DNA of 64,000 nucleotides from Natator depressus (taxonomy: Eukaryota), in assembly GCF_965152275.1 (NCBI RefSeq), contig NC_134234.1:39458920-39522919 (forward strand), given 5' to 3'. The translations under genes were made by a program, and so were the position numbers. The stretch's first letter is position 1, and every line of letters begins with the position of its first letter. Positions 15,772 to 43,202 of the stretch are shown here, one piece after another. Under the pieces are notes generated by a model. The model was not told the origin of the DNA, did no database searches, and saw only the letters and a list, made by a program, of their open reading frames with translations.

Positions 15772-16420
15772 GTGACTTCTACCAATGTGATATATGCCCC
15801 TCTGCCATATACATTGGCCAAACCGGACAGTCTACGCAAAAGAATAAATGGACACAAATCAGATGTTAAGAATTATAACATTCAAAAACCAGTCGGAGAA
15901 CACTTCAACCTCCCTGGACACTCAATTACAGACCTAAAAGTCTCAATTATTCAACAAAAAAACTTCGAAAACAGACTCCAACGAGAAACTGCAGAACTGG
16001 AATTAATTTGCAAACTGGACACCATTAAATTAGGCTTGAATAAAGACTGGGAGTAGATGAGTCATTACACAAACTAAAAACTATTTCCCCATGCTAATTT
16101 TCCCCCTACTGTTACTCACACCTTCTTCTCAACTGTTTGAAATGGACCATCCTGATTATCACTACAAAAGTGTTTTTTTTCTCCTGCTGATAATAGCCCA
16201 CCTTAATCGATTAGTCTCGTTAGAGTTGGTATGGCAATCCCATTTTTTCATGTTCTCTGCATATCTATCTATCTATCTATCTATCTTCTGACTGTATTTT
16301 CCACTGCATGCATCTGATGAAGTGGGCTTTAGCCCATGAAAGCTTATGCGCAAATAAATTTGTTAGTCTCTAAGGTACCACAAGTACTCCTCGTTCTTTT
16401 TGCTGACACAGACTAATGTG
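15772..16420 (+). mobile_element. PLE fragment: GIY-YIG endonuclease region and 3' tail
   Basis: The plus strand encodes CDICPSAIYIGQTGQS (GIY-YIG core), then a frameshift, then LRKRINGHKSDVKNYNIQKPVGEHFNLPGHSITDLKVSII...LGLNKDWE. The characteristic PLE 3' tail follows: ...catctgatgaagtgggctttagcccatgaaagcttatgcgcaaataaatttgttagtctctaaggtaccacaagtactcc... Confidence 0.7.
16263..16286. repeat. (ATCT)n microsatellite
   Basis: atctatctatctatctatctatct. Confidence 0.95.
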
Positions 16421-17052
16421 GCTACCACTCTGAAACATATATTCTCTGTAATTTTATTCTTTCAAAGTGTGTTATTTTAGTGTTTTGACTGGTCTATGCA
16501 TTTCATAATTTTTATTTCTCTTACACTTAAATTGAATTCTTTGAGTAGTGAGTTCTATAATGCCTATAATGTTCTGTCCTGGCTGGAGTAATTATCCCTA
16601 TTTAACTTTTTTAAAATATATATTATATCTAGGTTTTTTGTTTCTACTGGTGGCATACATCCGCACATACCTTGGTGCACATAACAAAATTTATTCTGCA
16701 CATGGATGGAAAAAATTAGAGGGAACATTTGATTGACACACTTTTTGTTAGCCACCAACCTTTATCATACAAGTTGTAGAGGGAATCAAACTTTAATAGA
16801 AACCATCCTCTCAACAAAATGTCGTATGTGATGTTCCTGTCATTGTGCTTAAATACATTTAGGATTCCTTTTTTGTGGGTCTTCTGTATAGATTCTTTTG
16901 TGTACCAGGGAACATGTTTTTAAAGATATGCATCTGATTACTCACAACTCCAATTCTGTTTGCATTTCTGAAAACGGAGCATCACTGAAGAAGTACTGAC
17001 AGCACGGAATGATAGGGAAAAATGAGAGGAATACATTTCTTATTTCTTTCAG

Positions 17053-17470: not shown

Positions 17471-18526
17471 TGTTCCCTTCCCCCCACCCACCCTACTCAC
17501 TTCCTGATTGACTGCAGACTATATAGTAAAACTTGAGTTCTGCTTAGCTATACCTTAACCAATCATTTTACTGAAATTTAACTAACCAATCCTAACATAC
17601 TGTAACATGATTATTTAACCAATTATATCCCACCACCTTAATTAGTTTACACCCAGCAAAATTAATTATACAGCAGACAGAAACAATCACAGAACCAGAC
17701 AGAGATTATACAGACAACAATAGGGAAATGGGGACTACAGTGATAGAACAAACACAGAAATGAGGATTTCACATCCCAGCTATTGATAAGTGAGTTCTTG
17801 CCAGACAGGATGCTATCAAACTAAGTTTCCTTTTACATCTTTTAGGCACTTCCCTTTCTGTGGAGGCAGTAGGCATTATCAGGACAGGATTGTATTCCTA
17901 ACAGCCCAATAGCACCTTATTTCAATGTGACTAGTTCGGAATGTGAGGATGTGACCGTTCACTTCCCAGCTTATGGCTGCCTCTGCTGCTTAGCCAAAGG
18001 CCTTAGCCTAAGAACAGGGCCTCAGACTGTCACAGTAAGAGAAAGCTCTTACACTGGCAGACAGTGATTCTGATTCTTTCTTTTATACCTCTATAACTAG
18101 CTAAGTGATAAGAATACACCTAAATTCTTAGAGTATAGGCCTTTACAGACAGGCCTGAATATCTATATCCTAACACCATATACATGTTGTTTTAAAATAG
18201 CACATACCCTTGTTTTCAGCATTTTTGCTGTTTTAATAAAGAACCTCAGCCTCATTTGAAGGAAGCTTTTAAAAAGGCAGCTGACCTATGTGGGATAAGT
18301 GAGCACATTTCCGACATGCTTGATGGCCCAGACTGATTTGTAAAATATAAACTTACCTGGGTGGAAGGTGGTTCTTCTCATTTTAGGAATTTGTTGGGGC
18401 TACCTCTGTAGTTTCTGACGTTGAGGTGATGTTAGCTGACCTCTGCTGGGGATGATGCAGCAGCGTTCTCTTTCAATACTTAAGCCATTGCTTTTTGGAA
18501 AAATTCTAAAAGAACTGAGGCCTGGT

Positions 18527-19113
18527 CTACACTACATAGTGAGGTCGACGTAAGGCCGCTAGTTATGACCTAATTATATCAGTGTACACACTAAAGCCTT
18601 GTCCCGCCGATGTAAGTGCCCAACTACATCGACATACTAACTCCACATCCACAAGAGGCATAGGGCTTATGTCAGTATAGTTAGGGCAATGCAGCATCTG
18701 TGTAGACACCTCATTACTTACACTGGCTGTTGGCCATTTCAGGGCTCCATGCTGGATCCATGAAATTGATGAAAAAACTCAGGGAGGTGAGAAGCCCGGG
18801 TGGCTCACTCCCGCTCCCAGTGGGGAGGCGAGAAGCTGAGAATCCGGTGGGCAGCTGGCCTCAGCTCCCAGTTGGGAGGCAAGAAGCCAAGCTGGCTCCT
18901 GGCGGGGAGCTGCACCTGGCTCTCAGTCCTGGCTCTCGGTCCCCAACACTATCCCTCTTCAGTCTCTGGAAGTGTTCCTGGTGAGGATGTGCACCATTGA
19001 CAGGAGAGTAGTGTGGACATCAGTGACTGCAGTAATTGCTGAGGTGGCTGTAAGTCAACCTAACAGGTCAACTTAAGTCTGTAGTGTAGACTGTAGTGTA
19101 GATTCCCTGAGAG
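18527..19113. mobile_element. Non-autonomous Harbinger-type MITE
   Basis: Ends ggtctacactacatag ... ctgtagtgtagactgtagtgtagat. This is the same GGTCTACACTAC terminal repeat as Harbinger copy 1. The interior is GC-rich and non-coding. Confidence 0.5.
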
Positions 19114-22546: not shown

Positions 22547-24070
22547 GTATGTGTTTCCATTAAAATATCTCATTACTGTCTATATGTCTCTAAAAATTCT
22601 TTAGAAAATAACTGAAAAGAAAAACAATTACTGTAATCTTGTAAGAATTAAAGCACATATTGCTTAATATTATCACAGTGAACAATTTTAGTTCTTTTAC
22701 AGAAGAACTAAAATTATTTTTGCAAAAGCTTGTGTTCTTTGATGCTTTTTGAATTATATGTTACTTTCCTTATGAAGCTTCTTTTATATCATACGTTGTT
22801 GGAGTACCTAGGCATCCAAACAAAGTCTGTTTCTATCCCATCCACTACCCAGACTGGATGTTTGCAAGTGAACCAACAGAGAGGCATAATCTCTGTGTTT
22901 ATTTTGGAGATACTTGCTTTTTTAATGATTTAGAAACTGCAATTTTCTTTTTGTATCTGTGTATGCATGTGGCAGAGTTCAGAACTGTGCAAGTGTTCTG
23001 ACTTTGGGACTATATCTGTAGGCACAACTCCTATAAAGGCACCATCTCTGGTCCAGAAAGAACTTTTTAATCTAGAAGAACAATACTTTTACCCTGTAGT
23101 GCTGCAACTGTAATTGAAAGAAACTGTTTGGATTGCAGGCAGCAAGTACTGTGTCTTCCCATATGTCTGTACAGCATCTAGCACGTTAGGAACTATTATA
23201 GTATAAGTAATACTAATAGTTATTAATTATTATTTATTTAGGATTATAAGTATACTAAAGGAAAATAATCAATTCCCTATTACGGTATAATTATCTGAAT
23301 GTCATGGAGGGCATTGAGTAAGTTGGGATAACTTAAGGAACAGGAGACGTCCATATTTTGGACCATTACATTGTACTGCATTTAAAACTAAAAATAGGCT
23401 GGCACAGATTTTGTTCATAGAAATAAATATTGTTTTGTTTGTGCCTTTTAAGAATATAACTTATACATTTGACAGATGTCATCGCATGTATAATATCCCA
23501 GCAATCCTATGTAATAGTTATTGGTGGAATTATTGTCCCTTTCTTGTAAATAGGGCTCCTTAATCAGCCAAAGATTTACTGTTAAGCTCTGTGTGGCACC
23601 CCTCCACACTTGGCCACTACCTCCCTAGCAAAAATCTAGTCAGAGCTTTCACTCTTCTGGCAGTTCTTGCTCTGATTTTCAGACAATGTAATCATCTGTT
23701 TTGTTACCTCCTGGTAATGATCTTTATATAATACAAATTTTATAAATAAAGTGCCATTCTACTCAGGCTCTCTGATTACTGTGAAATATCATAAACAACA
23801 GTTAAACGTAAACAGTATAAACTTGGCAGTATAAAAATCAGATAACCTGCTAAAAAGCATACTGGTTCCAATACATTGGAAAACATCTTTATCATATACA
23901 TGTATAATAAATCAGGTCATGTGTCTTGTACATATATCAGAAAAAAGGAAATTTAAACATCATCTTTGTATATTAGGATTCTGTACATTCATCTACCATA
24001 TTCCAGACCTCTGCATTATACTCACAGAAGAAATACTCTTTTCTTTTCGTAATCTACAATATGTTGGTGT

Positions 24071-25020
24071 GTTTGGTTGCTCTTAACCATTGACTTATAT
24101 ACGGGAGTTGTGATGGGGAAGTGACACATGAGTAACAGCTGACATCCAAAATTAAAAACTGTCTGATTGATCTGCCCGCTGAAAGCAAGTGAGAGGGTAA
24201 TTTCTGAACTGAAGTTACATAAGATACAGAAGAGGTTTCTCAAAATACTTGGAGGTGCACTGCCAGTGTTGTGTGCCAGTCCATTTACTACCAATAGTGT
24301 GTTATGATACGACAACCCTTAATGCAGTCAGGCATTATAAAGTTACATTTACTCCGTGTTTGTGTATACTGAGCATCTTTTGTATACTGAATGCACCTCC
24401 TCTCTATATTTCCTCGCAAGTTTCACCCAGCATTTGACTCTCAACCTTACATTGTCTGATAGAGAAGGAATCTCTGGCATAACAAGCATCACTTTTAAGG
24501 ATTATAATAAAATTAAAGACAGTTCTCTAGTTTGTAATTCTGTTGCGTTTTAATTTAGGATGTTAATGAAGTTCAGCATGCTGGTCTTCCAAACATTCTT
24601 GAACTTATAGCTGAGGAAGATATAGACTTTTTACCCTACATGGACTGGGAACATGAGACATCTGGACATGGATACCTGTCTTCTAATAGAGGAGTGGGAT
24701 TTGGCAGATGTGAATCGGTAAATATGCTTTATGTGTTCTTGTTTTTAACATTTTTTGTGTATTACCCAGTTGTGGTAGTAGATGGTTTATAAGGTAGCAG
24801 TTGGTAGTTGTTTATAAAGTCTGCACCATTTCTTATTATTCTGGATGCAATTAATTTCATAAATGTTTGTGTGAAGTGCAAAAAATCAGAGTACTCTCTC
24901 CCAAAGAAAGGCAAGGTACATAAAAGGTGGTGTGGCATCAGGCCCCATTGCAGCAGAGATCTTTGAGAGAGAAGAGGATTCTAGTGGCCCTTTACTCTCT
25001 TCCAGGATAAATTCTTCCCT
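24071..25020 (+). repeat. Segmental tandem duplication, unit 1 (intron plus exon 24560-24718)
   Basis: Nearly identical to 26884-27822 from gtttggttgctcttaaccattgac through ...ccaggataaattcttccct. Spacing is about 2.8 kb. Confidence 0.85.
24560..24718 (+). CDS. PARP4: Coding exon, copy 1 of a tandemly duplicated exon
   Basis: Acceptor ttttaatttag|GATGTT and donor GAATCG|gtaaat. Frame DVNEVQHAGLPNILELIAEEDIDFLPYMDWEHETSGHGYLSSNRGVGFGRCES. 159 nt, phase 0 to 0. Confidence 0.65.
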
Positions 25021-26883
25021 TTCCATCCAGGGTCTTATACCATGCTTTCATGCTGCTGTTTCCCTCTCTTGGGAATATATACTTTATATATACTGCGCAT
25101 ATATATATATGCTTACTTATTAACAAGGAATGTACAGAAAACAAAAAATAGTTTCTTTGCTTATAGCCCCAAGCCTCTTTGGGTCTAGTGCTAGCTAAAG
25201 ATCTCTCTCCCTTGCTTTTTCAGGGTTTTATACCATACTTACATTACAGGCTGCTGCTTCACTTTTTTGTGCCATGTCTACACTACCAATTTGTGTCAAC
25301 AGAAGTGATGCTGACATAATAAAAATCATAATTTCGTGTTCATTCTTGCTCCCTCTGTTGGCAGATCATGTCCACGGTGTGGCCTCCCTCCGATCCACAG
25401 GGGGAGGAACCACTTTATGTGCCTGGGTGGGTGGAGTCAGGCCGGGTTCACCCTTCTCACTGGAAATTGAGAGACAGGACGGGAAGTACAAAAAGAGGAA
25501 CCTTCAGCTCAGTTGGAGCCGAGCCAGGGCAGGAGACAGGCGAATATTGCTCGCTGCTGGCCTCTTACTCTGCTGCTGAACCAAGCGGTGCCCTGACCCC
25601 AGAGGAGACCAAGTCCAAGGAGGAGCTGCTGATGGCTGTGTACCCCCAGGAGATGGACGACACCTACAGAGCCCAGGTACCAAACAAAGAGGTAGTAGAA
25701 AGTGGCCCAGGGACACTAGACCATAGTCTGGTTGCATGGTTGCCTGAATCCAGGTCTGTGTGTTTCAGGCGGATCCCCACTGACCCACTGACAGAACATT
25801 CTGCCACTTATAGCCTGGGGCTGAGAACCAGTGGAGTAGGGAGGGCCTGGGTTCCCCTACCCCCTGGTGTTAAACCTACCCCAGGGGTGGCAGCCTCCCC
25901 ACCATAGGTGAAAAGGCCTGTGTTTGTCTGCTGTCTGCCAGATCTGAGACAACAATCTGTGTAGTGCTCTGCCCTGCACGAGGGCCAGAGCCTATAGCCT
26001 GCTTGTTAGCTCTGCTGTGCTGGAGAGCCAGAGCCCACAGACGGTTTGGTGTGCCACCCCACCGAGAGGGTCAGGGCATTAGCACCTGATTTGCTAATTC
26101 CCCTGATGTTAAGCAGTGACCCCAGTGACATAATGAGGCAGTGTGGCTTCTCTCCGACCCAGATGGGGAGGGACAACCACCACCGCACTACATACCCCTT
26201 TTTGACCCAAGCAGCTAATCAAAATTTGAGGCCCTGGTATTCCAGTTGGGGGTAGAAATTGATGAAAGACTCTGCATCAAAAAATATCCTGATCTTGCTT
26301 ATTAACAAGGAATGTATGAGGTCCTGGGTCCCCGAAGGTAGGAGGAACCAGGAAACAACAAACAGTTTCTTTGCTTATAGCCCCAAGCCTCCTTGGGTCT
26401 AGTGCTAGCTAAAGAGCTCTCTCCCTAGTTTTTTCCATGGTCTTATACCATGCTTTCAGGCTGCTGCTTCCCTTTCTTGCTGTTTGTCTCTTTGGGATTG
26501 GGTATGAACGCACCCTACAATTAACATAACTGGCAGGATATGTCAAGCAGGAGCCCCTGCCCACCCAAGACAAAAGCATCTGTGAACCCACCCAGGGAAC
26601 ATGCATACACTCCTTGCCGAAACCCCATTCACCACTCAGTCCAAAACTCCTGGATGGGTTCACAACCCCTTATGGCTTAGGTGAGGAGGTCGTGCTTAAC
26701 TTACCCTGACAGTCATGTTAATTGTAAGAGCGCAGTCACATCTAATTTCAAAGATGTTTTAACTAAGCCCATAACAATACCTTCCCTTCCACCCTGCTAT
26801 ACACATCCTCACCCAAGATCCCACTATGGATAAGGTCCTGTGTAAATCATGATTTCATGGATTACATGGAAATCCATGAAACA

Positions 26884-27822
26884 TGTTTGGTTGCTCTTAA
26901 CCATTGACTTATATACGGGAGTTGTGATGGGGAAGTGACACATGAGTAACAGCTGACATCCAAAATTAAAAACTGTCTGATTGATCTGCCCGCTGAAAGC
27001 AAGTGAGAGGGTAATTTCTGAACTGAAGTTACATAAGATACAGAAGAGGTTTCTCAAAATACTTGGAGGTGCACTGCCAGTGTTGTGTGCCAGTCCATTT
27101 ACTACCAATAGTGTGTTATGATACGAAACCCTTAATGCAGTCGGGCATTATAAAGTTACATTTACTCCGTGTTTGTGTATACTGAGCATCTTTTATATAC
27201 TGAATACACCTCCTCTCTATATTTCCTTGCAAGTTTCACCCAGCATTTGACTCTCAACCTTATATTGTCTGATAGAGAGGGAATCTCTGGCATAACAAGC
27301 ATCACTTTTAAGGATTACAATAAACTTGAAGACAGTTCTCTAGTTTGTAATTCTGTTGTGTTTTAATTTAGGATGTTAATGAAGTTCAGCATGCTGGTCT
27401 TCCAAACATTCCAATGGCTCCAGAACATTTAGACTTTTTACCCTACAAGAACTGGGAGCATGATACATCTGGATACCTGTCTTCTAATAGAGGAGTGGGA
27501 TTCGGCAGAAGTGAATCGGTAAATACGCTTAATGTATTCTTGTTTTTAACATTTTTTGTGTATTACCCAGTTGTGGTAGTAGATGATTTATAAGTTAGCA
27601 GTTGGTAGTTGTTTATAAAGTCTGCACCATTTCTTATTATTCTGGATGTAATTAATTACATAAATGTTTGTGTGAAGTGCAAAAAATCAGAGTACTCTCT
27701 CCCAAAGAAAGGCAAGGTACATAAAAGGTGGTGTGGCATTAGGCCCCATTGCAGCAGAGATCTTTGAGAGAGAAGAGGATGCTAGTGGCCCTCTACTCTC
27801 TTCCAGGATAAATTCTTCCCTG
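26884..27822 (+). repeat. Segmental tandem duplication, unit 2 (intron plus exon 27372-27518)
   Basis: Paralog of 24071-25020. Identity is high in the intronic parts, with divergence concentrated in the exon. Confidence 0.85.
27372..27518 (+). CDS. PARP4: Coding exon, copy 2 of the duplicated exon (in-frame paralogous exon)
   Basis: Same splice signals as copy 1, inside a duplicated block. Frame DVNEVQHAGLPNIPMAPEHLDFLPYKNWEHDTSGYLSSNRGVGFGRSES. 147 nt, phase 0 to 0. The sequence cannot show whether it is spliced in. Confidence 0.45.
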
Positions 27823-28059
27823 TCTGTCTAGTCCAAGGCCTTGTTTTCTTTAGAGTACTCAGATGGTGGTACTTCTGTCAGTTGTATTGCACTGATTGAC
27901 GTACCATTAACTGTCCAGTGTAGCCACCCTGAATCAGGGTAAGGCTTGTCCTTGCTTAGATCGATTTAGATGTGGGATGTCATATATCCCTCAGCTGGTA
28001 AACCTCCTTCGTTTGCTGGCGGAGTCCTCCTCTCTTACATCCACCATGCCTCATTCAGC

Positions 28060-28270
28060 ACCCACAATATACTGTACTTGTGGCACCTTAGAGACTAACC
28101 AATTTATTTGAGCATAAGCTTTCATGAGCTACAGCTCACTTCATCGGATGAAGTGAGCTGTAGCTCACGAAAGCTTATGCTCAAATAAATTGGTTAGTCT
28201 CTAAGGTGCCACAAGTACTTCTTTTCTTTTTGCGAATACAGACTAACACGGCTATTACTCACAATATACT
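28060..28270. repeat. Perfect palindrome made of two inverted PLE 3' tails
   Basis: ggcaccttagagactaaccaatttatttgagcataagctttcatgagctacagctcacttcatcggatgaagtgagctgtagctcacgaaagcttatgctcaaataaattggttagtctctaaggtgcc. The centre is near 28144. Confidence 0.85.
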
Positions 28271-28909
28271 GCTACCCCTTGTTGACCCAAACAGCCAGTA
28301 AAAGTTTGAGGCCTTGGGGATGTTCTGGTTGGGGGTAGAAATTGATGAAAGAGTCTGGTATATTTGTTAATGCAGTCTTGCTTATTAACAAGGAATGTTC
28401 AAGGTCCTGTGTCTCCAAAGGCAGGAGGAACCAGAACACAAAAAATAGTTTCTTTGATTATAGCCCCAAGGCTCTTTGGGTCTAGTGCTAGCTAAAGATC
28501 TCTCTCCCTTGCTTTTTCAGGGTCTTATACCATACTTACATTACAGGCTGCTGTTTCACTCTTTTGGGCCATGTCTACACTACCAATTTGTGTCGACAAA
28601 AGTGATGTCGACACAATAAAAATCACAATTCCATGTTCACACTTGCTCCCTCTGTCGCCAGATCATGTCCACAGTGGGGGCACCATCATCGACAGTGTGA
28701 ATAATGCACTGTGAGTACCTATCCCACAGTCCTTCTGTCACTAGGTGTTGTGGGATGACGGAGTGAATCATGGCACATCTTGGGACGTGTTAAATATCCC
28801 GTGATGCATTGCTTTCTGTCCCAGCACTCCATGAGCTTCCGACTTCCTTTTGCGGCGTTTTTTCAACGGCCCTTCTTTGCTGTGAACCCGGGCATTTTTG
28901 TGAGAAGGG

Positions 28910-30160
28910 TTGGATCCCGCACTGCTCTCCTATGCTCTGTTAACTGTCATGAAGACATTGCGGATGGCAGTGCAGTTAATCGTGAAGTTTCTAACTGAGG
29001 AAGACTCACAGGTGCCTGACGTTCTGCGTGATATGAATAGGAGCAACTTTAGATTGCTTTTGGCATTCACTGAGCAGGTGCATAGGATAGACCGTCACTT
29101 TTGGGCTCATGAAACAAGCACTGAATGGTGGGATCGCATCCTCATGCAGGTGTGGGATGATGAGCAGTGGCTATAGAACTTTCGGGTGCAGAAAGCCAGC
29201 TTCCTGGAACTATGCTTGGAGCTTGTCCCAGACATGCGGCTCAAGGACACCAGAATGAGAGCTGCCGTCTTGGTAGAAAAGCGTGTGGCAATTGCTGTGT
29301 GGAAGCTGGCAACTCCAGACTGCTACCAGTCAGTCATGAATCAATTTGGAGTGGGGAAGTTGACCGTTGGGGCTGCGTTAATGCAAGTGTGCAGGGCAAT
29401 AAATTGCATCCTGCTACGAAGGACTGTGACTCTGGGAAATGTGTGTGAAATAGTGGACAGCTTTGCAGAAATGGGGTTCCCTAACTGTGGAGGGGCGATA
29501 GATGGCACACGTATTCCAATTTTGGCACCAGACCACCTTGCGACGGAGTACATCAATAGGAAGGGATACTTCTCCATGGTGTTGCAAGCGTTTGTGGATC
29601 ACCATGGGCATTTCACTGACATCAGCATAGGGTGGTCTGGGAAGGTGCATGATGCACACATCTTCAGAAACAGCGGCCTCTACAGAAAGCTGCAAGCAGG
29701 GACTTTCTTTCCTAACCAGAAGATTGGGGGGGGAGGAGGGGGTGTTGAAATGCGCATAGTGATCCTGCGGGACTCTGCGTACCCCTTGCAGCTGTGGCTC
29801 ATGAAACCTTACACGGGACACTTGGACAGCAGTAAGGAGCAGTTCAACAACAGGCTCAATAGGTGCCGGATGACAACTGAATGTGCCTTTGGCAGATTAA
29901 AGGCACACTGGCGATGCCTTCATGGTGGGTTGGACCTCACTGAGGATAATATTCCTGTGGTCATAGCCATGTGCTGTATGTTGCATAATCTCTGTGAAGC
30001 TAAGGGTGACAGGTTTGCTCAGGAGTGGAGTGCTAAGGCAGACCGCTTGGCCGCTCATTTTGAGCAGCCAGATACCAGGGCTGTCAGAGGTGCACAGAGG
30101 GGAGCTATTCGAATCAGGGAGGCTGTGAGGCAGCACTTTGACAATGACCACCATTAATAT
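28910..30160 (+). pseudogene. Harbinger (HARBI1-like DDE_Tnp_4) transposase with a single in-frame TAG
   Basis: ORFs 28910-29176 and 29186-30157 are in the same frame and separated only by TAG at 29177-29179 (..DDEQWL*NFRVQKASF..). The second ORF has the HARBI1-like motifs GAIDGTHIPI, DAYPL and LHNLC. Total length is about 416 codons. Confidence 0.75.
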
Positions 30161-31727
30161 ATATCTGTGTCTGAGTTGCTTCAATGTTACATGCCATGTA
30201 GTTTTCTAGGGGGCAATAGTGACATTTGGAGCCTTATATTCCTGTAATAAAGTGATCAAAATGCCTGTGCATGTATTAGCAGTGCCTGCAATCTCACCTT
30301 GTAGAAAAAAATTAAAGATGATTTACCATTATAAAAGTTTGCTTTTATTGCACAAGAAACAGCGCGCACACAAACACACAGATGCTTGCCAGGAAAGGAG
30401 GAACCAGGGAAGGGCAGACTTTCACAGCTGCGTGGAGGTCCAGCTATCATTGTGAAAGTTGTCTGAGGAGGTGAAGTAAAGGGGAAACGAAGAATCCTGG
30501 AAGGTAGAAAGGAATGTGTGGGCGGAACTTGGGGGGCAGGGAAGAGAGTTCTGAATGTACTGCAGTGGAGATTGAGCACTGATCTGCTCAGTCTGCAGCA
30601 TTATTAAGGACTTCATCATCTGCATTTTCTCCTCCATTACTTTAATCATCAGCTCAGTAGCGTCCTTAACAAATGTGTAATTCTCTTTTCTGTCCTGCCC
30701 TTCAGCTTCACAGCATTCCTTTCATTCCCTTTTTTCTGCATTGGATCACTGCAGGACCTCCCGGAACATGTCTTCTTTGCTGCATCTTGAGCGCTTTCTT
30801 ATCTGGTGGAGACTCTCGGCCGGGGTGCGTGGGGCCTGAAGGCCACGTCTGGTGAAGCACAGGGTTACAATGCACAGAAGCAAGATTATTAAATTCACGC
30901 ACAGAATTGAAACATTTCTGTTAAATACACCTTTTACAACATTGCAATCACTTTCTCACTGACCCTAGCCAGGCACACATCTCTGCAAACACCCAAAGCA
31001 TTCTGAGTGTTGGTGTGGGGGCGGGGGGTCCACATGGAGAAAAGAGCACACACTCTTTGCAAGGGTCATGGTGCAGCATACTAGGGAACAAATTCTAAAA
31101 TTCTCCCACACTTTTCCACAGGCGGGAGTCATTCTAGCAGATATCTCACTGCTAAGGGTAAGCAGGGAAACGAGGATACTCCATGCTTGTGGCTTCTGCC
31201 CTGCTCCCTATGCTGCTCGCCTGTGTGCTGCTTTGGTCCCTGCACAAGTGATTGCCGAATGGTGCAGAAAAGTTTCCTACAATGGGGAAGGAACAAAGCT
31301 GCTCTGCCACGGAACCTTCAGCAGAGGATTACCGAGTACCTCTAGGAAACTTTTCTGGAGATCTCTCTGCAGGATTCCCATGAGATCTCAGCGTGCATCA
31401 ACACCCTGTTCCGCTGTACTGATTAGCTACACAGGGAAATGTCCATCTCACAGAAACACAGTCAGGCTCCCACATTTCTATGCCCTGAACCCACGTCTCC
31501 ACGACACAGGCCACAGCCACTTACCAGGAGTTTCATCTCCTGCTTCTTGCTCACCAGAGAGCAACTGCTGAGACTGGCTAGACACCTCTGGAGTGGAGAA
31601 CCGTTCCTGGCTGCCTGCCCCACCGGACGACCCAGCTGGGAGCTGCACATCCTCATCTAACTCCACCTCTTTATCAATAACTTCGTCCTTGGGTTAGGTC
31701 CTCTTTCTGCCACCACAGGGCTCTTGG

Positions 31728-32078
31728 CTATCCACCAAGGTTAGCGTCCAGCTCCTTATAGACCCAGCAGATCTTAGGTGCAGCACCAGAGCGACGGTTT
31801 GCCTCCCTCGCCTTATGGTACGCCTGCCTCAGCTCCTTTATTTTCGCTCTGTACTGCAGCGTGCCCTGATCACAGCCCTTTTCGCACAAGTCTCGAGAAA
31901 TGTGCCCATAGGTATCCCATTTCCTATGGCTTAAGGCAGCTGTGACTGCACAGCCTCCTCTCCCCATATGTTGATCAGATCCAACAGCTCTGCAGTGGTC
32001 CAAGCAGGAGAGCTTTTGCTGCGATAACCCACCATGGTCACCTGGGAAGATGCGGTGAGACCTCTTCACTCTGAGCAA
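31728..32078 (-). pseudogene. Myb/SANT-like (Harbinger partner protein) ORF fragment of copy 1
   Basis: KIKELRQAYHKAREANRRSGAAPKICWVYKELDANLG matches the Myb-like DNA-binding domain of Harbinger-associated proteins. It is homologous to the intact-looking gene at 41555-43202. The downstream part (30420-31700, -) is frameshifted. Confidence 0.55.
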
Positions 32079-32890
32079 ACAGGAAATGGAATTTCAAAAA
32101 TTCCCAGGGCTTCTAATGGGCAGGGGCGGATGGTTGTTTACCTGGCTGCGGGGCAGTGGAGTTCAAACTGCTGACCAGAGCAGTCAGAATGGGCATTGTG
32201 GGACACTTCCTGGAGGCCAATTAAAGAGATGAAATGAAGCATGGTGTCTACACTTGCATTTTGTCAACCAAAATTTAGAGGAAAAAGACATAAATCTCTC
32301 ATGAGGGTGGATGTATTTTGTCGCCAAAACCAGGCATTTTCCCTGACAAAAGTCACCTTGCAGTGTCTACACTGTTTGGGTCGACAAACAGCAATTTTGG
32401 TGACAAAACTTGGTAGTGTAGGCAAGGCCTTGCTGTTTGCCTCTTTGAGATTGGGTATGAATGCACTCTACAATTAACATGACTGTCATGATAAGTTAAG
32501 CAGGACCCACCCCTCATAAAACAAAAGCAGTTGTGAACCCACCCAGGGAACATACATATCAAAACAACATTCAGAATAACCCCATTAACCACTCAGTCCA
32601 AAACTTCTGGGTAGGTTCACACTCCTTTTGTCTTTGGGGGGCATTCTGCCAACCTTATCCTGACAGTCATGTTAATTGTAGAGTCCATTCACACCCAATT
32701 TCAAAGATGTTTTAATTTAGCCCATAACAAGGTTTCACCCAGCTCATAAGAATACCTTCCCTTTCACCCTGTTCTACAGGTCCTCAGCCAAGATCCCACA
32801 ATGGGTAAGATCCTGTATAAATCATGAGTTCATGAATTGCATTGAAATTGTGAAATACCTCACTATTAAAAATGTGCACCTTATTTCTAG

Positions 32891-33807
32891 TCCGAATTTG
32901 CCTGGCTTCAGCTGCAAGGAAAGAAGTTGCTTGTTTAATTGACAAGAAGAATAGGCTTTGTGTTGAGCATGATGATCATTGGATTGATACTGAGTCTAAT
33001 GAAAATATGGTCTTAATCACAAAAAAAAAAGTTGGTTTAAACTCCAGAAATATTTTGTTTTCTTATAATTTTACTCGACAGGTTCCTTTTCATGCAGTAA
33101 CTAGTGGTTTTTCTGACCATTTCCTAACTGGAGGAGATAAACAGCTGAAAAGTCTCCAATTTCGAAGTGACAAAGAAGTTCCCTTGGTTGAAGAGTGCAT
33201 TTTACCAGATTCTACTGAATTGAGTTTTATAAAGGCTGCTAAAGTTAAATATGATCCTGGTGCCGCTGGAGTTGGACTATTTGGGTCTATCTCTGTGCCA
33301 CAACCAAAATTCAGCCTGCATGGTCAATCACTTTTAAACATCAGGCTTCCCAAGCCTCCAGCTAGTAAGCCTTTTTCTTTTCAAGTTTCTATACCTCCTC
33401 CTTGCCCTCTTCCTGGTGCTGCTTCTTGCCCTCCTCGCCCTCCTCCTTGCGCTCCTCCTTGCCATCCTCCTTTCCCTCCTCCTTTCCCTCATGAATTCAC
33501 TCAGGGGCTTTGTTCAGATTTAAAGAGTTCATTTACTCCTGTGGGCAGAACCCTGAAGAAGGCAAATTTTGAAACACAAGTTACTCCTGAAGTTCTTACT
33601 TCATCAGCTAGGTTCAGACTAGGATCACCAATGCTACAAACTGCACCAAAGTGTGGAGAAAAACTTCATCGTGAGCTCAGCAAGGTTAGTAGAAATCTGA
33701 ATTATGCTTTGCCTTTCTCTGATGTTGAACATGCAGCCAAAACAAACAGGAGTAGTTGCTCTCGATCGCATTGGACTTCTGCATCAAGGGATACTGAAGA
33801 AGAGGAG
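32891..33807 (+). CDS. PARP4: Large proline-rich coding exon (305 codons)
   Basis: Strong acceptor ccttatttctag|TCCGAA and donor GAGGAG|gtaaat. There is a single long open frame, RICLASAARKEVAC...SIPPPCPLPGAASCPPRPPPCAPPCHPPFPPPFPHEF...DTEEEE. It needs 1 nt from the upstream exon (phase 1), which does not match the phase-0 end of the preceding exons (see findings). Confidence 0.55.
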
Positions 33808-34045
33808 GTAAATTCTGCTCTTTTATAGTGATTTATATTTTGGAGGTTTAATTAACTTTTAATGGAGTGATATAAACTTAGATCTTGTTTCTTCCACCCT
33901 TATTCATGTTGATTAATCTTACTTTACTACACTAGTAGTCTCATAGATCTCAGTGGAATTAGTTGTGTGATGAAGTACTATTTAATATGAATAAGGCAGA
34001 ATCAGGTTCTTAGTGACTATTTCTGGTTTTGTTTTGTTTTTAAAG

Positions 34046-38277: not shown

Positions 38278-40006
38278 AAGTCAGTCTAGATATCTCAAGA
38301 GATTCACAACGTTTGCGCCTGGCAGGCAATTCACCATGTGGTTCTCCTGGTCATCACAAACGCAACTATATTTCTAATAATTGAATCCTCCATTACTATT
38401 ACCAGTCTGTAACATACCAAGGCACAATCTAGACCAGTGGTCACCAACCGGTTGTTCTTCTTTGAGTAGTGTCCCTATGAGTGCTCCGCTGTAGGTGTAT
38501 GTGCGCTCTTGCGCCTCTAATCAGAGATTTTTGGTAGCAGTGTCCGTTGAGCCCATGCATGTGCTCTCCTTCCCTCCTGGTCTGGCACTGCAGGGGCGAA
38601 GCCCCCTCACTTCCTTCTCAACCGCCTTTGGCCTCAAACAGAGCGAGCAGTCATCCCTTCCTTATCTGTGTCATTAGCATAAGTAGTAGTCGTGTTTTTG
38701 TTTCTTTTGGTCTCCTTAATCGTTAGTGTTTCATTTTTATTTACTCCTTTGGGATTAAAGGAGAAAAAAAGAGAAAGAAAGAAAAAGAACTTTAGTTTCC
38801 TGCCCCGTCTGAGGGCACCCCCACCTCCCAGGCATTTAGTAGACTCTAAGTTTTTCAGTTTATTTTTTAAAAAAAAAGAAAATAAAAAGGAAAAGAAGAG
38901 AAGGAGTAAAGAAGACCTTTTTCTGCATTCCCCACTGCTAGAGGATGATAGCCCCCTGCCAAGGGGCATGCCTGGTTCTCCCTGCTCCAAGAGGTGCCTC
39001 TCCTACAAGGAGTCAATTCCTGTAATGGCCAGACACTCTTACTGTGTCTGGTACCTGGGAGAGCCTCACGGAAGTGCTTCACCTGCCACAGCTAAAACAG
39101 CAGTCTCGCAGGAACTGGGACCTGAAGTTAAAACTCCTCCTTATGGAGAAGGTACTTCAGTCTCCAGGGGACTCCGGGGTTGACCCCGGATCATCCCTGG
39201 AGCCTCTAAAGGTACGTCTACAGTACGAAATTATTTCGAAATTATTCTATTCAAATTTTTGGAAGCAATTTTATACATTTGGTCTTGTGTGTCCCCACTA
39301 AAGCACGTGAATTCGGTGGAGTGCATTCACAGTACCGAGGCTAGCATCGAATGTCAGAGCGGTGCACTGTGAGTAGCTATCCCACAGTTCCCGCAGTCCC
39401 CGCCGCCCATTTGAATTCTGGGTTAAGCTCCCAGTGCATGATGGGGCAAAAACATTCTCGCAGGTGTTTCTGGGTGTGTGTCATCAGTTGCTCCTCCCTC
39501 CGTGAAAGCTACGGCAGACAATCGTTTTGCGCCTTTTTGGTGTGCAGACACCATACTGCTTTCAGTAGATGGTGCAGTACGGTGCACTGCTTCTCTCCTA
39601 GTACTTTGAATCCACCTCGCATTTCCTCTTGTCTTTCTATGTAATCTCTATAAGTATCTACTCTTTCTATTCCTCATCAACCGCTTCCACTGCCAACTCT
39701 GCTTGGCCATCATGAACCGAGCAGCAGAGCTTCCACCGCCAGCTCTGCTCTCCCGCTCTTGCCGCGCTACCGAGCTTCTCCATGTTGTCTGTCTTGGATC
39801 CCGCCTCCGTGAAAGCTACAGAAGACAACCATTTCCCACCTTTTTTTGTTTATCGTGAACCAAACAGCACCTCTTCCGCTGCCACTCTGCTCTCCTACAT
39901 TTCATGCCCTTTTTCCAGGATTACCCGTGCAGGCGCCTTAGCGCAGCAAGCCGTGGAGCCGCTATAGTTTTGACCATTGTAAATACCTCGCCCATTATCC
40001 AGCAGT

Positions 40007-41408
40007 ATGTGCAGTACCTGCAAAACCAGGCGAGGAAGCAACAATAGCACGATTACTATACTGCTGAGGACATGGATCCAGACATTCTTAGAAGCACAGC
40101 ATGTGGCAATTGGGAGATCATGGTGGCGTTGGGCCAGGTTCATGCCGTGGAACGCTGATTCTGGGCCCGAGAAACAAGCACAGACTGGTGGGACCGCAAA
40201 GTGTTGCAGGTATGGGATGATTCCCATGGCTGCGAAACTTTCGTATGCATAGGGCCACTTTCATGGAACTTTGTGACTTGCTGTCCCCTGCCCTCAAGCA
40301 CAAAGACACCAAACTGAGAGCAGCCATCACAGTTGAGAAGCAAGTGGCCATAGCCCTGTGGAAGCTTGCAACGTCCAACAGCTACCGGTCAGTCGGGAAT
40401 CAGTTTGGAGTGGGCAAATGAGGGGAGAGGGATAGCTCAGTGGTTTGAGCATTGGCCTGCTAAACCCAGGGTTGTGAGTTCAATCGCTGAGGGGCCATTT
40501 AGGGATCTGGGGCAAAAAAAATTGGGGATTGGTCCTGCTTTGAGCAGGGGGTTGGACTAGATGACCTCCTGAGGTCCCTTCCAACTCTGATATTCTATGA
40601 TTCTATGAAATCTACTGTGGGGGCTGCTGTGCTGCAAGTAGCCAATGCAGTCATTGACCAGCTGCTATCAAGGGTAGTGACTTTGGGAAATGTGCAGATC
40701 ATCGTGGATGGCTTTAATGCACTGAGGTTCCCTAACTATGGCGGGGCGATAGGTGGAACGCATATCCCTATCTTGGCCCCAGAGCATCGGGGTGGCCAGT
40801 GTGTAAACTGCAAGGGGTACCTTTCCATGGTGCTGCAAGCACTGGTGGATCACAAGGGACGTTTCACCGACATCAACGTGGGATGGCCGGGAAAGGTGCA
40901 TGACGCTCGCATCTTCAAGAACTCTAGTCTGTTTGAACAGCTGCAGGAGGGGACTTACTTCCCAGACCAGAAAATTACTGTTGGGGATGTTGAAATGCCT
41001 ATAATTATCCTCGGGGACCCAGCCTACCCCTTAATGCCATGGCTCATGAAGCCGTACACAGACACCCTGGACAGTAGTAAGGAGCAGTTCAACTATAGGC
41101 TGAGCAAGTGCGGAATGGAGTTAGAATGTGCTTTTGGATGTTTGAAAGTGCACTGGTGCAGTCTACTGACTTGGTTAGATCTCAGCACAACCAATATTCC
41201 AATCGTAATTGCTGCTTGTTGTGTGCTCCATAATATCTGTGAGAGTATGGGGGAGACGTTTATGGTGGGGTGGGAGGTTGAGACAACTCGCCTGGCAGCC
41301 AATTTCGCACAGCCAGACAACAGGGCAATTAGAAGAGCGCAGCAGGGCGCACTGCACATCAGAGAAGCTTTGAAAGCCAGTTTCATGACTGGCTGGGGTA
41401 CGGTGTGA
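40007..41408 (+). pseudogene. Harbinger transposase, copy 2, disrupted
   Basis: It is homologous to 28910-30160 (..FWARETSTDWWDRKVLQVWDDS.., ..PWLRNFRMHRATFMELC.., GAIGGTHIPILAPEHRG..). It has a stop near 40140, a frameshift near 40225, and a SINE insertion at 40414-40608 that splits the ORF. Confidence 0.8.
40414..40608 (+). mobile_element. tRNA-derived SINE with a CR1-type tail, inserted in the transposase ORF
   Basis: tRNA-like head gggatagctcagtggtttgagcattggcctgctaaacccagggttgtgagttcaatc (A and B boxes). The tail ggttggactagatgacctcctgaggtcccttccaactctgatattctatgattctatg is shared with the CR1 3' UTRs at 9097-9182. Confidence 0.8.
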
Positions 41409-41554
41409 CAGTTGTGTTTGTTTCTCTTGAAGTTACCCGCCCCCTATATATATGAAGGGAAATAAAGTCACAATTGTTTAAAAAACGTTCTTTATTATTT
41501 GTTGCACAACACATTGAGAGAAATCAGAAGATAGACCCGGGGGCGGTAATTGGG

Positions 41555-43202
41555 TTAAGGGGGTGGAGCAGGAGGGAAGGACAAGTCCAGAAACCAAATC
41601 AAAATTTCGGATATGCCAGCTTTCTGCTGCTTGTGCAATCGTCTGGGGTGGAGTGTGTGGGTCCCTGTAGCCTTCCCGCCGCCCCCCCGTGTTCTTGGGC
41701 GCCTGGTTGAAGAGGCTATGGAACTTGGGGAGGAGGGAGGGCGGTTATACAGGGGCTGCAGCAGCAGTCTGTGGGCTTGCTGCCTTTTCCGCATTAGATC
41801 CACCATATAGCGGAGCATGTCAGTTTGCTCCCCCATGAGCTTGACCATAGCATCCTGCCTGCTCTCATCGCATGCACCCCTCCTCTCTTCCTGTTCTTTT
41901 AACACTTTACAGGACTCTGCAATTGTTTGCCTCCACACATTCAGCTGGGCCCTATCAGTGTGGGAGGACTGCATGAGCTCGGCGAACATGTCGTCCCGAG
42001 TTTGTTTTTTCCACCTTCTAATCTGGACCAGCCTCTGGGACGGAGTAGATAGGGGCCGCATTGAAATATTTGCACCTGCGGGAGGAGAAAAAGGGAGGGT
42101 AGTATTTTAAAAGATTAATTTTAGAGAACAAAGGTGACACTCTTTCCCAGTGAAACAGGCAATTCATAGTACACAGCACATGTTCTTTCTGTACAAGGTC
42201 ACATTTTGCCTCTTACACTGAAGTGCCTGCCACTTTGGTGTGAGTAAGCCATCACACATGGCCGGGCAACAGAATTCAGCTTGCAGGCAGCCATGTTAAG
42301 CCCTAGGGGCACACAGGTTCTGCTTCTTCCAAATTCATTTCAATGCTTTCAAACTGCCGGGCCCCCTTTCCCATAGCAAGCAATTCCTGGTGGGTTTGCC
42401 ATATAAAAGGAGGGCCTGTGGGCTTTCTGGGATGATTGCTTCACACAACACACACCCTCACCCACTGCATGGCTCCGATGAGGCTCTGAGCAGGGATGAG
42501 CCATTTAAACTAAACGCGAACAGCCCCGTGCGGCTGGGTTTTCCCCCACCCCTCACCGCGTGGCTCCATTCAGGCTCTCACTCACCAGAAATGCCTTCTC
42601 CAGGGTCATGGTCTGGGAGCCCACCTTGGGAGTCGGGGGAGGCTATTGGGTCCAGCGTTAAGAATAATTCCTGGCTAGGGTTGGGAAACGGATTCCCCAC
42701 TTGCCACCTGTGCACTGTCATCCTCCTCCTCCTCCTCCAATAACTCATCCTCCTCGCTCTGTGCAACTCCCCCCTTGCAGGTGTCCATGGACAGTGGTGG
42801 GGTAGTGGTGGCATCACCCCCCATAATAGCATGCAGTTCACGATAGAAGCGACATATATGGGGCTGTGACCCAGAGTGCCTGTTCACCTCCCTGGCTTTT
42901 TGGTATGCTTGCCTGAGCTCCTTGATTTTTGTACGACATTGCTCTGTGTCCCTGGAGTAGCCTCTTTCCGTCATGGCCCTGGAGACTTTAGTGTACGTAT
43001 TTGCGTTTCTTTTTTTGGAACATAGTTCTGCCATAACAGATTCATATCCCCAACATGCAATGAGATCCAGTACCTCCCGTTCAGACCATGCTGGAGCTCT
43101 TCTGCGAATCCGGGACTGCATGGTCTCTTGTGATGGTGGAGTCTGTATGGTCACCTGTGATGGTGGACTGTGCTGATGGTCACCTGTGCTGATGGTGACC
43201 AA
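41555..43202 (-). CDS. Harbinger-associated Myb/SANT-like DNA-binding protein gene, apparently two exons
   Basis: ORF 42675-43202 (-) includes WSEREVLDLIACWG...CRTKIKELRQAYQKAREVNRHSGSQPHICRFYRELHAIMG (Myb-like) and an acidic tail. ORF 41555-42061 (-) encodes the C-terminal part. Putative intron: donor CAA|gtgggg near 42650 and acceptor tttctcctcccgcag near 42060. Confidence 0.5.

What the first reader, a model, noticed from the sequence alone, without database searches (positions are those of the whole stretch)
28573..32427. Harbinger copy 1 keeps a full-length transposase broken by a single TAG, plus a Myb-like partner ORF
The DDE_Tnp_4 transposase reading frame of about 416 codons (28910-30160) is interrupted only by one TAG at 29177-29179. 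Copy 2 carries a stop, a frameshift and a SINE insertion. Terminal repeats (GGTCTACACTACC...GGTAGTGTAGGC) and subterminal GTCGACAAA-type repeats are present. Several MITEs with the same ends occur in the window (18527-19113, 59537-59722, and a solo left end at 25270-25380). This points to a recently active Harbinger family in this genome, which is uncommon in amniotes.
Basis: partly seen in the sequence, partly recalled or inferred. Interest (0 to 1): 0.6.

Follow-up and report, generated by a model that had tools for sequence, protein, structure and literature searches.

The report
Old, decayed Harbinger transposon in turtle DNA
This is a real but long-dead copy of a Harbinger "cut-and-paste" transposon in a turtle genome: one of its two genes looks almost intact only by luck, so it is an ordinary genomic fossil and not evidence that this family jumped recently.

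Summary
Window 28567-32429 is a full-length PIF/Harbinger DNA transposon in a turtle genome. It has 18-bp terminal inverted repeats (16/18 matching), a 3-bp target-site duplication (TTG, not TWA) confirmed by a paralogous empty site, and subterminal TTTGTCRMC repeats. It carries a DDE_Tnp_4 transposase frame and a convergent two-exon Myb/SANT-like gene.

The "nearly intact" reading does not hold:
- The transposase has lost its ATG (TTG at 28910) and has a TAG at 29174-29176, 3 nt from the stated position.
- Of 39 substitutions private to this copy, 31 are nonsynonymous and 8 synonymous, the neutral ratio.
- It has lost 21 of 41 consensus CpGs and lies about 8% from a five-copy consensus.
- The Myb-like gene has at least 4 frameshifts and 2 stops.
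- The insertion predates a local segmental duplication that is itself about 5% diverged.
- The nearest copies in other turtles are only 77-84% identical.

The "MITEs" are a segmental duplicate, a right-end fragment and a member of another family. Copy 2 (39211-43530) is a different Harbinger family.

Separately, Chrysemys picta bellii holds six 5.5-kb Harbingers that are 99.0-99.6% identical with both genes intact. Young Harbingers therefore exist in turtles, but in another family. Whether the window's species has them is unknown.

The parts
28564..28566 (.). Left target-site duplication, TTG
   Evidence: Read directly from the sequence. The same TTG follows the right end. The paralogous empty site has a single TTG at 26477-26479.
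28567..28584 (+). Left terminal inverted repeat, GGCCATGTCTACACTACC. Imperfect inverted similarity to the right end extends to about 42 bp.
   Evidence: (28567-28608 versus 32429-32388, 81%).
28589..28615 (.). Left subterminal GTCGACA(A/C)A repeats, the presumed binding sites for the Myb-like protein
   Evidence: The binding function is inferred from Harbinger3_DR biology as summarised in PMC9392472.
28910..30160 (+). Transposase pseudogene, single exon, 416 codons. Lesions: start codon lost (TTG at 28910-28912); Q89 to TAG at 29174-29176; 6-bp in-frame G-run insertion at about 29726; G287R in the conserved GDxAYP motif. The acidic residues D198, D248 and E324 are retained.
   Evidence: (DDE_Tnp_4, 114 bits).
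30422..30848 (-). Myb-like partner gene, exon 2 (C-terminal half) including the terminal stop. It has TGA stops at 30746-30748 and 30722-30724 and a frameshift at about 30834. Further possible frameshifts lie near 30498-30535.
   Evidence: The AG acceptor at 30849-30850 was read from the sequence.
30849..31524 (-). Inferred GT...AG intron of the Myb-like gene (676 bp)
   Evidence: Homology breaks between aa 182 and 190 of P0121. The donor GGTAAG and acceptor CAG were read. The intron is inferred, with no transcript evidence.
31525..32035 (-). Myb-like partner gene, exon 1, holding the Myb_DNA-bind_4 domain. It starts at the ATG at 32033-32035. Three frameshifts lie at about 31936, 31730 and 31689, with in-frame deletions between them.
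   Evidence: 27.2 bits on the uncorrected ORF; 45 bits, profile 2-88/89 after frame correction; P0121, 65% identity, E=6.8e-118.
32244..32411 (.). Right subterminal region with four TTTGTCRMC/GKYGACAAA-type motifs (starting at 32260, 32317, 32380 and 32399) and internal GTCTACACT motifs
32412..32429 (-). Right terminal inverted repeat, GGTAGTGTAGGCAAGGCC
32430..32432 (.). Right target-site duplication, TTG
26193..26873 (+). Paralogous 'empty site': a copy of the host repeat that lacks the Harbinger. The left flank (81%) joins directly to the right flank (77%) at the TTG at 26477-26479.
25135..25400 (+). Segmental duplicate of the left flank plus the first ~130 bp of the element (element part 25270-25400). 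This is not an independent insertion. It belongs to a larger duplication (24070-25023 matches 26884-27824 at 95%).
   Evidence: The flank part is 4.4% diverged. The element part is about 13% diverged, mostly at CpG sites.

Best explanation
Window 28567-32429 is an old, inactive, full-length copy of a two-gene PIF/Harbinger DNA transposon in a turtle (Testudines) genome.

How the element worked when active (inferred from the family, not tested here): the DDE transposase and the Myb/SANT-like protein were both needed. The Myb-like protein imports the transposase into the nucleus and binds the repeated GTCGACAAA-type motifs inside both ends. The transposase then cuts at the 18-bp inverted termini and pastes the element into a new site, duplicating 3 bp of target, here TTG.

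History of this copy:
1. It inserted into another local repeat.
2. It was then partly copied by a segmental duplication.
3. It has since decayed neutrally. The transposase lost its ATG and gained one stop and many changes at conserved residues. The Myb-like gene gained at least 4 frameshifts and 2 stops.

The long transposase frame is a chance survivor. It is not a sign of recent activity.
For: IDENTITY
- DDE_Tnp_4, 114 bits.
- Myb_DNA-bind_4, 45 bits after frame correction.
- 789 transposase homologues, with all 120 listed from turtles and the best 71-74% identical.
- The Myb-like reconstruction is 65% identical over 100% of its length to the 325-aa Chelonia mydas protein P0121.
- TIR 16/18 plus TTG/TTG plus the empty site.
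- The related Emys copy in L002 has the same termini (GGCCTTGGCTACACTAC...GTAGACAAGGCC) flanked by TAA/TAA.

AGE AND NEUTRALITY
- Pairwise nucleotide identity of the transposase to four copies from other turtles is 77-84%.
- 97/1205 positions (8.0%) differ from the five-sequence majority consensus. 39 substitutions are strictly private.
- Of the private changes, 31 are nonsynonymous and 8 synonymous, a fraction of 0.79. The simulated neutral expectation is 0.71. The probability of this result at dN/dS=0.2 is 2e-9. The control copy L001, which has an intact ORF, gives 0.46.
- 16 of 178 columns conserved at 90% or more are violated, ranking the copy 110th of 121.
- 21 of 41 consensus CpGs have changed to TpG/CpA.
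- Myb-like gene lesions.
- The insertion predates a duplication whose arms differ by about 5%.
- Expected stops for 39-97 neutral substitutions are 1.3-3.3, so P(at most 1 stop) is 0.61-0.15.

MECHANISM
- Both genes are required for transposition. The Myb-like protein imports the transposase into the nucleus, binds the transposon ends (TIRs) and recruits the transposase (PMC9392472, citing Sinzelle et al. 2008).
Against: - The source genome could not be searched, so family copy number and the divergence spectrum in this species are unknown.
- The five-copy 'consensus' mixes species and probably subfamilies. The 8% figure is therefore approximate, and 3.2% (strictly private changes) is the floor.
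- The transposase has fewer disabling lesions (2 in 1251 bp) than the Myb-like gene (at least 6 in about 940 bp). This is a mild imbalance: my own binomial estimate, not a tool run, gives P about 0.06.
- The TIRs are still well matched, so trans-mobilisation by a related autonomous element cannot be formally excluded.
- The TSD TTG is not the canonical TWA.
Confidence: 0.9

Rival explanations
1. One reading: copy 1 is a very recently inactivated member of a Harbinger family that is, or was until recently, active in this genome, disabled by a single TAG.
For: - A 416-codon frame with one internal stop and no frameshift.
- Good TIRs and an intact 3-bp TSD.
- Young Harbingers do exist in at least one turtle, C. 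picta bellii: six copies 99.0-99.6% identical with both ORFs intact.
Against: - The start codon is lost.
- The nonsynonymous-to-synonymous ratio is neutral, at 31:8.
- The copy is about 8% from the consensus, and 51% of consensus CpGs are lost.
- The Myb-like gene has at least 6 disabling lesions.
- The insertion is older than a duplication that has itself diverged by about 5%.
- The young C. picta family is only about 71% identical to copy 1.
- No protein closer than 74% was found among 5.8 billion clusters.
Confidence: 0.05
2. Copy 1 is coding-dead but still mobilisable in trans. Its TIRs and some subterminal motifs survive, so a related autonomous Harbinger elsewhere in the genome could still move it.
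For: - TIR 16/18, and five subterminal motifs retained.
- Harbinger proteins act in trans on ends that carry their binding sites (PMC9392472).
- Potentially autonomous Harbingers exist in C. picta.
Against: - The subterminal CpG-containing GTCGAC motifs decay quickly: the duplicated left end differs at about 13% of positions, mostly CpGs.
- The young C. picta family has different subterminal sequence (GGGTTTAGGTCGAC.../...TTCGAACTAATTTCG) and only a similar outermost ~17 bp.
- The element has stayed at this site since before the local duplication.
Confidence: 0.04
3. The transposase frame is a domesticated host gene (HARBI1-like) rather than a transposon remnant.
For: - A long frame.
- Homologues are often annotated 'putative nuclease HARBI1'.
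Against: - It lies between TIRs with a TSD, next to a Myb-like pseudogene.
- It has an in-frame stop and no ATG.
- Its substitution pattern is neutral.
- Hundreds of paralogues exist per turtle genome.
Confidence: 0.01

Closest known systems
PIF/Harbinger group of the PHIS superfamily (for example zebrafish Harbinger3_DR), as defined in Kapitonov & Jurka 2004 and Han et al. 2015 (PMC4482050)
   Same: - Two genes: a DDE_Tnp_4 transposase and a Myb/SANT-like DNA-binding protein.
- Short TIRs, a 3-bp TSD and subterminal short repeats.
- Length of 3.9 kb, close to the ~4.1 kb average given for autonomous candidates in PMC4482050.
   Different: - This copy's TSD is TTG rather than TWA. Related turtle copies show TAA and TTA, but also ATA and TAT.
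- Both genes are pseudogenes here.
Turtle Harbinger families already present in repeat libraries and gene sets: 'Harbinger-1' in the Malaclemys/Trachemys repeat landscapes (bioRxiv 10.1101/2023.08.19.550906), and hundreds of NCBI/UniProt 'DDE Tnp4 domain-containing' or 'putative nuclease HARBI1' and 'ZSCAN20/29-like' or 'Myb/SANT-like' turtle proteins
   Same: - Same protein families.
- Same GGCC(W/T)GKCTACAC termini.
- Nearest copy is Emys orbicularis L002: 80% nucleotide identity across the element and 84% in the transposase.
   Different: - No copy or protein closer than 84% nucleotide or 74% amino-acid identity was found.
- I could not check Repbase or Dfam directly, so the exact family name is unknown.
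Young Chrysemys picta bellii Harbinger family (loci L006-L011; proteins P0019 and P0255)
   Same: - Same superfamily, gene pair and convergent gene arrangement.
- Similar outer TIR (GGCCTGGTCTACACTAC) and 3-bp TSDs.
   Different: - About 5.5 kb long.
- 0.2-0.55% from its consensus, with both ORFs intact and perfect TSDs.
- Copy 1 is only about 71% identical to it. Window copy 2 is 83-88% identical in the transposase.
HARBI1/NAIF1 domesticated gene pair of jawed vertebrates
   Same: Both derive from the same two Harbinger genes (PMC9392472).
   Different: HARBI1 and NAIF1 are host genes with no TIRs. Copy 1 has TIRs, a TSD, stops and frameshifts, and a neutral substitution pattern.

Membership tests
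PIF/Harbinger (PHIS superfamily) DNA transposon | Transposase with a DDE_Tnp_4-type catalytic domain | tested here: met
   Pfam PF13359, 114 bits (cutoff 24.8), covering profile 1-158/158. Acidic residues are retained in the IDGT (D198), KVHD (D248) and ECAFG (E324) motifs. Assigning these as the catalytic triad rests on prior knowledge, not on a test here.
PIF/Harbinger (PHIS superfamily) DNA transposon | Second gene encoding a Myb/SANT-trihelix DNA-binding protein | tested here: met
   PF13837 Myb_DNA-bind_4 scores 45 bits over profile 2-88/89 on the frame-corrected reconstruction. That reconstruction is 65% identical, at full coverage, to the 325-aa turtle protein P0121. The gene is present only as a pseudogene.
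PIF/Harbinger (PHIS superfamily) DNA transposon | Terminal inverted repeats at both ends | tested here: met
   28567-28584 versus 32412-32429, 16/18 complementary. Inverted similarity is 81% over 42 bp.
PIF/Harbinger (PHIS superfamily) DNA transposon | 3-bp target-site duplication of sequence TWA | tested here: inconclusive
   The 3-bp length is met (TTG/TTG, with a single TTG in the paralogous empty site). The sequence is not TWA. Relatives give TAA (L002, copy 2) and TTA, TAA, ATA and TAT (C. picta copies), so this turtle lineage tolerates targets other than TWA.
Recently active / autonomous element | Both ORFs intact | tested here: not met
   Transposase: ATG changed to TTG, plus a TAG. Myb-like gene: at least 4 frameshifts and 2 stops.
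Recently active / autonomous element | Low divergence from the family consensus, and near-identical sister copies | tested here: not met
   About 8% from the five-copy consensus, with 3.2% strictly private. Best sister copy is 84% identical. 51% of consensus CpGs are decayed. Caveat: the source genome itself could not be searched.
Recently active / autonomous element | Insertion younger than the neighbouring genomic events, or polymorphic or lineage-specific | tested here: not met
   The insertion predates a segmental duplication whose arms are 5% diverged over 954 bp and 4.4% diverged in the flank. Orthologous loci in other species could not be retrieved.
   25270-25400 shares its flank with copy 1, so it is a duplication. 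59440-59724 has only the right end. 18520-19100 has different subterminal sequence, no clean TSD, and a relative in Pangshura L001 at 75%.
Domesticated HARBI1-like host gene | Open frame under purifying selection, not flanked by TIRs or a TSD | tested here: not met
   There is an internal stop and no ATG. The nonsynonymous fraction of 0.79 matches the neutral 0.71. TIRs and a TSD are present.

The most novel reading that the evidence does not exclude
A different Harbinger lineage, to which window copy 2 is an old relative and copy 1 is not, may be young and possibly still transposing in emydid turtles, and the window's species might carry it.

In Chrysemys picta bellii, six elements of about 5.5 kb on six chromosomes show the following:
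- They are 99.0-99.6% identical to each other.
- Each has an uninterrupted 433-aa transposase ORF.
- All six encode an identical 336-aa Myb-like protein.
- Five of the six have perfect 3-bp TSDs.
- The Myb-like protein cluster has 321 distinct members.

If this lineage is active, it would be one of the few autonomous DNA transposons live in an amniote.
Probability: 0.3. Interest if true: 0.45.

Novelty: already known. Interest (0 to 1): 0.15.

Why it matters
For this finding, little. It is one more decayed Harbinger copy in a lineage (turtles and crocodilians) where such elements are abundant.

Its value is practical:
- It shows that a long, almost open transposase frame is weak evidence of youth in a slowly evolving genome. 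The ratio of nonsynonymous to synonymous private changes, CpG decay, the state of the partner gene and nesting order give the real age.
- It gives a clean local chronology: Harbinger insertion, then segmental duplication, then insertion of a hairpin retroelement.

The side observation may matter more. Near-identical, two-ORF-intact Harbingers in the painted turtle would interest transposon biologists, because active cut-and-paste elements are rare in amniotes.

Tried and rejected
1. I spent the last homologous-protein search on the 318-aa ORF just right of the element (32872-33828). The aim was to find a host exon that would lead to orthologous loci. It returned no hit and has no Pfam domain.
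2. Exact-protein look-ups of three window ORFs (29186-30157, 40605-41408, 7185-8432), meant to identify the source species or allelic contigs, found nothing on record. The species remains 'a turtle'.
3. A full-text search for Repbase names (Harbinger-1_CPB and similar) returned no papers. General literature searches found no paper dedicated to turtle Harbingers.
4. The first BLAST against 'L002' was really against a file holding L002, L003 and L004 together. I redid and re-attributed the hits.
5. I considered and rejected a 4-bp TSD (CTTG) or shifted element ends. These would misalign the TIRs by one base.
6. I considered the NuwaI (CWG) and NuwaII (C|TNA|G) PHIS groups because of the odd TSD. 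I rejected them because sister copies have TAA/TTA, and TTG fits neither pattern.
7. I considered domestication and rejected it on the neutral substitution pattern.
8. Structure prediction, Rfam, and the phage, plasmid and E. coli collections were not used. They do not bear on a vertebrate transposon.
Full report
WHAT IS THERE

Reading 28400-32600 and listing ORFs shows an element bounded by GGCCATGTCTACACTACC (28567-28584) and its imperfect inverse GGTAGTGTAGGCAAGGCC (32412-32429), matching at 16/18. Each end is flanked by TTG (28564-28566 and 32430-32432). A self-BLAST of the window shows that the two flanks belong to a local repeat. A third copy of that repeat, at 26193-26873, runs straight from the left flank into the right flank across a single TTG (26477-26479). 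This is a paralogous empty site, and it fixes both the element ends and a 3-bp target-site duplication. The terminal 12-mer is over-represented in the window (6 matches against 0.73 expected). A TTTGTCRMC/GKYGACAAA motif occurs five times in the terminal 2x200 bp, against 0.19 per kb elsewhere.

THE TRANSPOSASE FRAME

Frame 28910-30160 translates to 416 codons with one internal stop and no frameshift. It matches Pfam DDE_Tnp_4 over the whole profile (114 bits, E=6.6e-33). Two corrections apply:
- The TAG is at 29174-29176 (ORF end), not 29177-29179.
- Codon 1 is TTG where all full-length homologues begin MDP/MEP, so the initiator ATG is lost.

A protein search found 789 relatives. All 120 listed hits are from turtles, and the best are only 71-74% identical. 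The window is therefore from a turtle genome. The species could not be determined.

IS THE COPY YOUNG?

I fetched four loci that encode the nearest annotated proteins: Pangshura L001, Emys L002, Malaclemys L003 and Macrochelys L004.
- Transposase nucleotide identity to copy 1 is 77-84%. The five sequences are roughly equidistant from one another.
- Copy 1 differs from the five-way majority consensus at 97 of 1205 sites (8.0%). It has 39 substitutions where all four others agree.
- Of those 39 private changes, 31 are nonsynonymous and 8 synonymous, a fraction of 0.79. A simulation on the consensus gives 0.71 for neutral change. At dN/dS=0.2 the probability of the observed split is 2e-9. The control L001, which has an intact ORF, gives 0.46.
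- At 178 amino-acid columns conserved in at least 90% of 120 turtle homologues, copy 1 deviates 16 times, ranking 110th of 121. The deviations include G287R in the GDxAYP motif and H201R next to the first catalytic Asp.
- 21 of 41 consensus CpGs have become TpG/CpA.
- The only indel is a 6-bp in-frame G-run.
- With 39-97 neutral substitutions, 1.3-3.3 stops are expected, so seeing at most one has P=0.61-0.15.

The near-open frame is therefore unremarkable.

THE PARTNER GENE

The 116-aa minus-strand ORF (31728-32078) barely reaches the Myb_DNA-bind_4 threshold (27.2 bits against a cutoff of 27), and only for the C-terminal two-thirds of the domain. Three-frame translation shows the N-terminal third (MVGYRSKSSPAWTTAELLDLINIWGEEAVQSQL) in another frame.
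- A reconstruction stitched across frames matches the whole domain (45 bits, profile 2-88/89).
- It is 65% identical over its full length to a 325-aa Chelonia mydas protein (P0121, E=6.8e-118).
- tblastn and a frameshift-aware alignment give two exons, 32035-31525 and 30848-30422, separated by a GT...AG intron.
- Frameshifts lie near 31936, 31730, 31689 and 30834. TGA stops are at 30746-30748 and 30722-30724.

The partner is thus a badly damaged pseudogene, not an ORF. Harbinger transposition needs both proteins (PMC9392472, citing Sinzelle et al. 2008), so the copy cannot be autonomous.

RELATIVE AGE FROM THE NEIGHBOURHOOD

- Segment 25135-25400 is 89.9% identical to 28432-28695. It spans the left flank, the TTG and the first ~130 bp of the element.
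- Upstream, 24070-25023 matches 26884-27824 at 95%.
- In the pairwise alignment the flank part differs by 4.4% and the element part by about 13%, mostly at CpGs in the GTCGAC motifs.

The 'solo left end' is therefore a segmental duplicate. The Harbinger insertion is older than a duplication that has itself diverged by about 5%. Turtle genomes evolve at roughly one-third of the human rate (PMC4054807). Assuming about 0.5-1e-9 substitutions per site per year (my assumption), 3-8% decay corresponds to tens of millions to more than 100 million years. This is an order-of-magnitude inference only.

A hairpin-forming repeat at 28075-28259 has a 12-bp TSD (cacaatatactg) and a 96-97% identical copy at 49735-49853. 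It is absent from the other duplication arm, so it is younger.

THE OTHER PIECES IN THE FINDING

Copy 2 spans 39211-43530.
- Its ends are AGGTACGTCTACAGTAC... and ...GTACTGTAGACCAGGCC, with TAA/TAA TSDs.
- It carries a transposase (39958-41405) with two stops, a frameshift and a tRNA-derived SINE with a CR1-type tail at 40419-40608.
- It also carries a two-exon Myb-like gene (43115-41605).
- It is only 68-73% identical to copy 1 and has different subterminal motifs, so it is a different family.

59440-59724 aligns only to the right ~240-285 bp of copy 1, at 68%, and to the right ends of L001-L004. It is an end fragment, not a MITE.

18520-19100 has GGCCTGGTCTACACTACA at the left and a duplicated, truncated motif at the right. 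It has no clean TSD and has unrelated internal sequence. A 75% relative sits in Pangshura L001. It is a non-autonomous element of another Harbinger family.

COMPARISON WITH WHAT IS KNOWN

The element meets the defining features of PIF/Harbinger: DDE_Tnp_4 transposase, Myb/SANT partner, TIRs and a 3-bp TSD (PMC4482050). The exception is that the TSD reads TTG rather than TWA.
- The Emys sister copy has TAA/TAA with the same termini.
- Young C. picta copies show TTA, TAA, ATA and TAT.

Relaxed target choice is therefore a property of the lineage rather than a reason to reclassify. The NuwaI (CWG) and NuwaII (C|TNA|G) groups do not fit.

Harbingers are reported as absent from mammals and birds but present in non-avian reptiles (PMC4350176). 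hAT and PIF/Harbinger elements together are reported as about 7% of crocodilian genomes (PMC7397244). A 'Harbinger-1' family is used as a vertically inherited comparator in Malaclemys and Trachemys (bioRxiv 10.1101/2023.08.19.550906). Hundreds of turtle proteins annotated 'HARBI1-like', 'DDE Tnp4' or 'ZSCAN20/29-like' are plainly these two genes. The finding is a known kind of object in a lineage where it is common.

A SIDE RESULT

While checking whether any turtle Harbinger is young, I found that the Myb-like cluster represented by P0207 has 321 distinct members. One 336-aa member, P0255, is encoded identically on six Chrysemys picta bellii chromosomes. The six loci (L006-L011) contain elements of 5473-5499 bp, with one at 4514 bp because of an internal deletion.
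- They are 99.0-99.6% identical pairwise and 0.2-0.55% from their consensus.
- Each has an uninterrupted 433-aa transposase ORF.
- The TIRs are GGCCTGGTCTACACTACGGG.../...CGTAGTGTAGACATACCC.
- Five of the six have perfect 3-bp TSDs.

This family is about 71% identical to copy 1 and 83-88% identical to the copy 2 transposase. A Natator copy from another large cluster (L005) has an intact transposase but a stop in its Myb-like gene. Recently active Harbingers do appear to exist in at least one turtle. However, copy 1 is not evidence for them, and the window contains no member of the young family.

VERDICT

The classification as Harbinger is correct. The inference of recent activity from this copy is not supported. 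The element is an ordinary, old, non-autonomous transposon fossil.

Noticed in passing
L006-L011 (Chrysemys picta bellii GCA_011386835.2; elements at about 5616-11114 in each locus): A young, apparently autonomous Harbinger family. Six copies on six chromosomes are 99.0-99.6% identical. Each has an intact 433-aa transposase ORF, and all encode an identical 336-aa Myb-like protein. Five of the six have perfect 3-bp TSDs (TTA, TAA, ATA, TAT, TTA). The Myb-like protein cluster has 321 members. This is a different family from copy 1.
   Followed up: partly
window 24070-25400 versus 26884-28695: A local segmental duplication. The 954-bp arms are 95% identical, and the duplication also includes the flank plus the Harbinger left end. 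The first arm breaks off at about 25400 into 790 bp of unrelated sequence (25401-26192) with no Pfam match.
   Followed up: partly
window 28075-28259 (also 16311-16430 and 49735-49853): A hairpin-forming repeat: an inverted dimer, 97.9% self-complementary over 145 bp. It is flanked by a 12-bp TSD, cacaatatactg (28063-28074 and 28260-28271). The copy at 49.7 kb is 96-97% identical, and related copies occur in Macrochelys locus L004. It looks like a relatively young retroelement-type insertion (possibly Penelope-like, from memory). It is absent from the other duplication arm.
   Followed up: partly
window 39211-43530: Copy 2 is a full-length Harbinger of a different family, with TIR ...GGTCTACAGTAC, TSD TAA and ATTTCGAAAT-type subterminal repeats. 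Its Myb-like exon 1 is still an open 175-aa ORF (70.8 bits to Myb_DNA-bind_4). It is an older relative of the young C. picta family.
   Followed up: yes
window 40419-40608: A tRNA-derived SINE, with a tRNA-like head (gggatagctcagtggtttgagcattggcctgctaaacccagggttgtgagttcaatc) and a CR1-type 3' tail that is 96% identical to 9097-9179. It is inserted in the copy 2 transposase.
   Followed up: partly
window 32872-33828 (+): A 318-aa ATG-initiated ORF with a proline-rich stretch, immediately right of the duplicated flank. It has no homologue in the 5.8-billion-cluster protein database and no Pfam domain. It is probably spurious but remains unexplained.
   Followed up: partly
window 7185-8432 (+), 9183-10925 (-), 12578-13766 (-): Other transposon coding remnants. 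Two are reverse-transcriptase (RVT_1) ORFs, CR1-like by eye. One is a pogo/Tigger-type pair (DDE_1 plus HTH_Tnp_Tc5). The window is dense in transposable elements.
   Followed up: partly
window 26489-26596 versus 26649-26754, and 32442-32547 versus 32607-32707: The host repeat into which copy 1 inserted contains an internal inverted repeat of about 105 bp (73-80% matching). This suggests it is itself a mobile element or foldback repeat. It was not found in the other turtle loci fetched.
   Followed up: no
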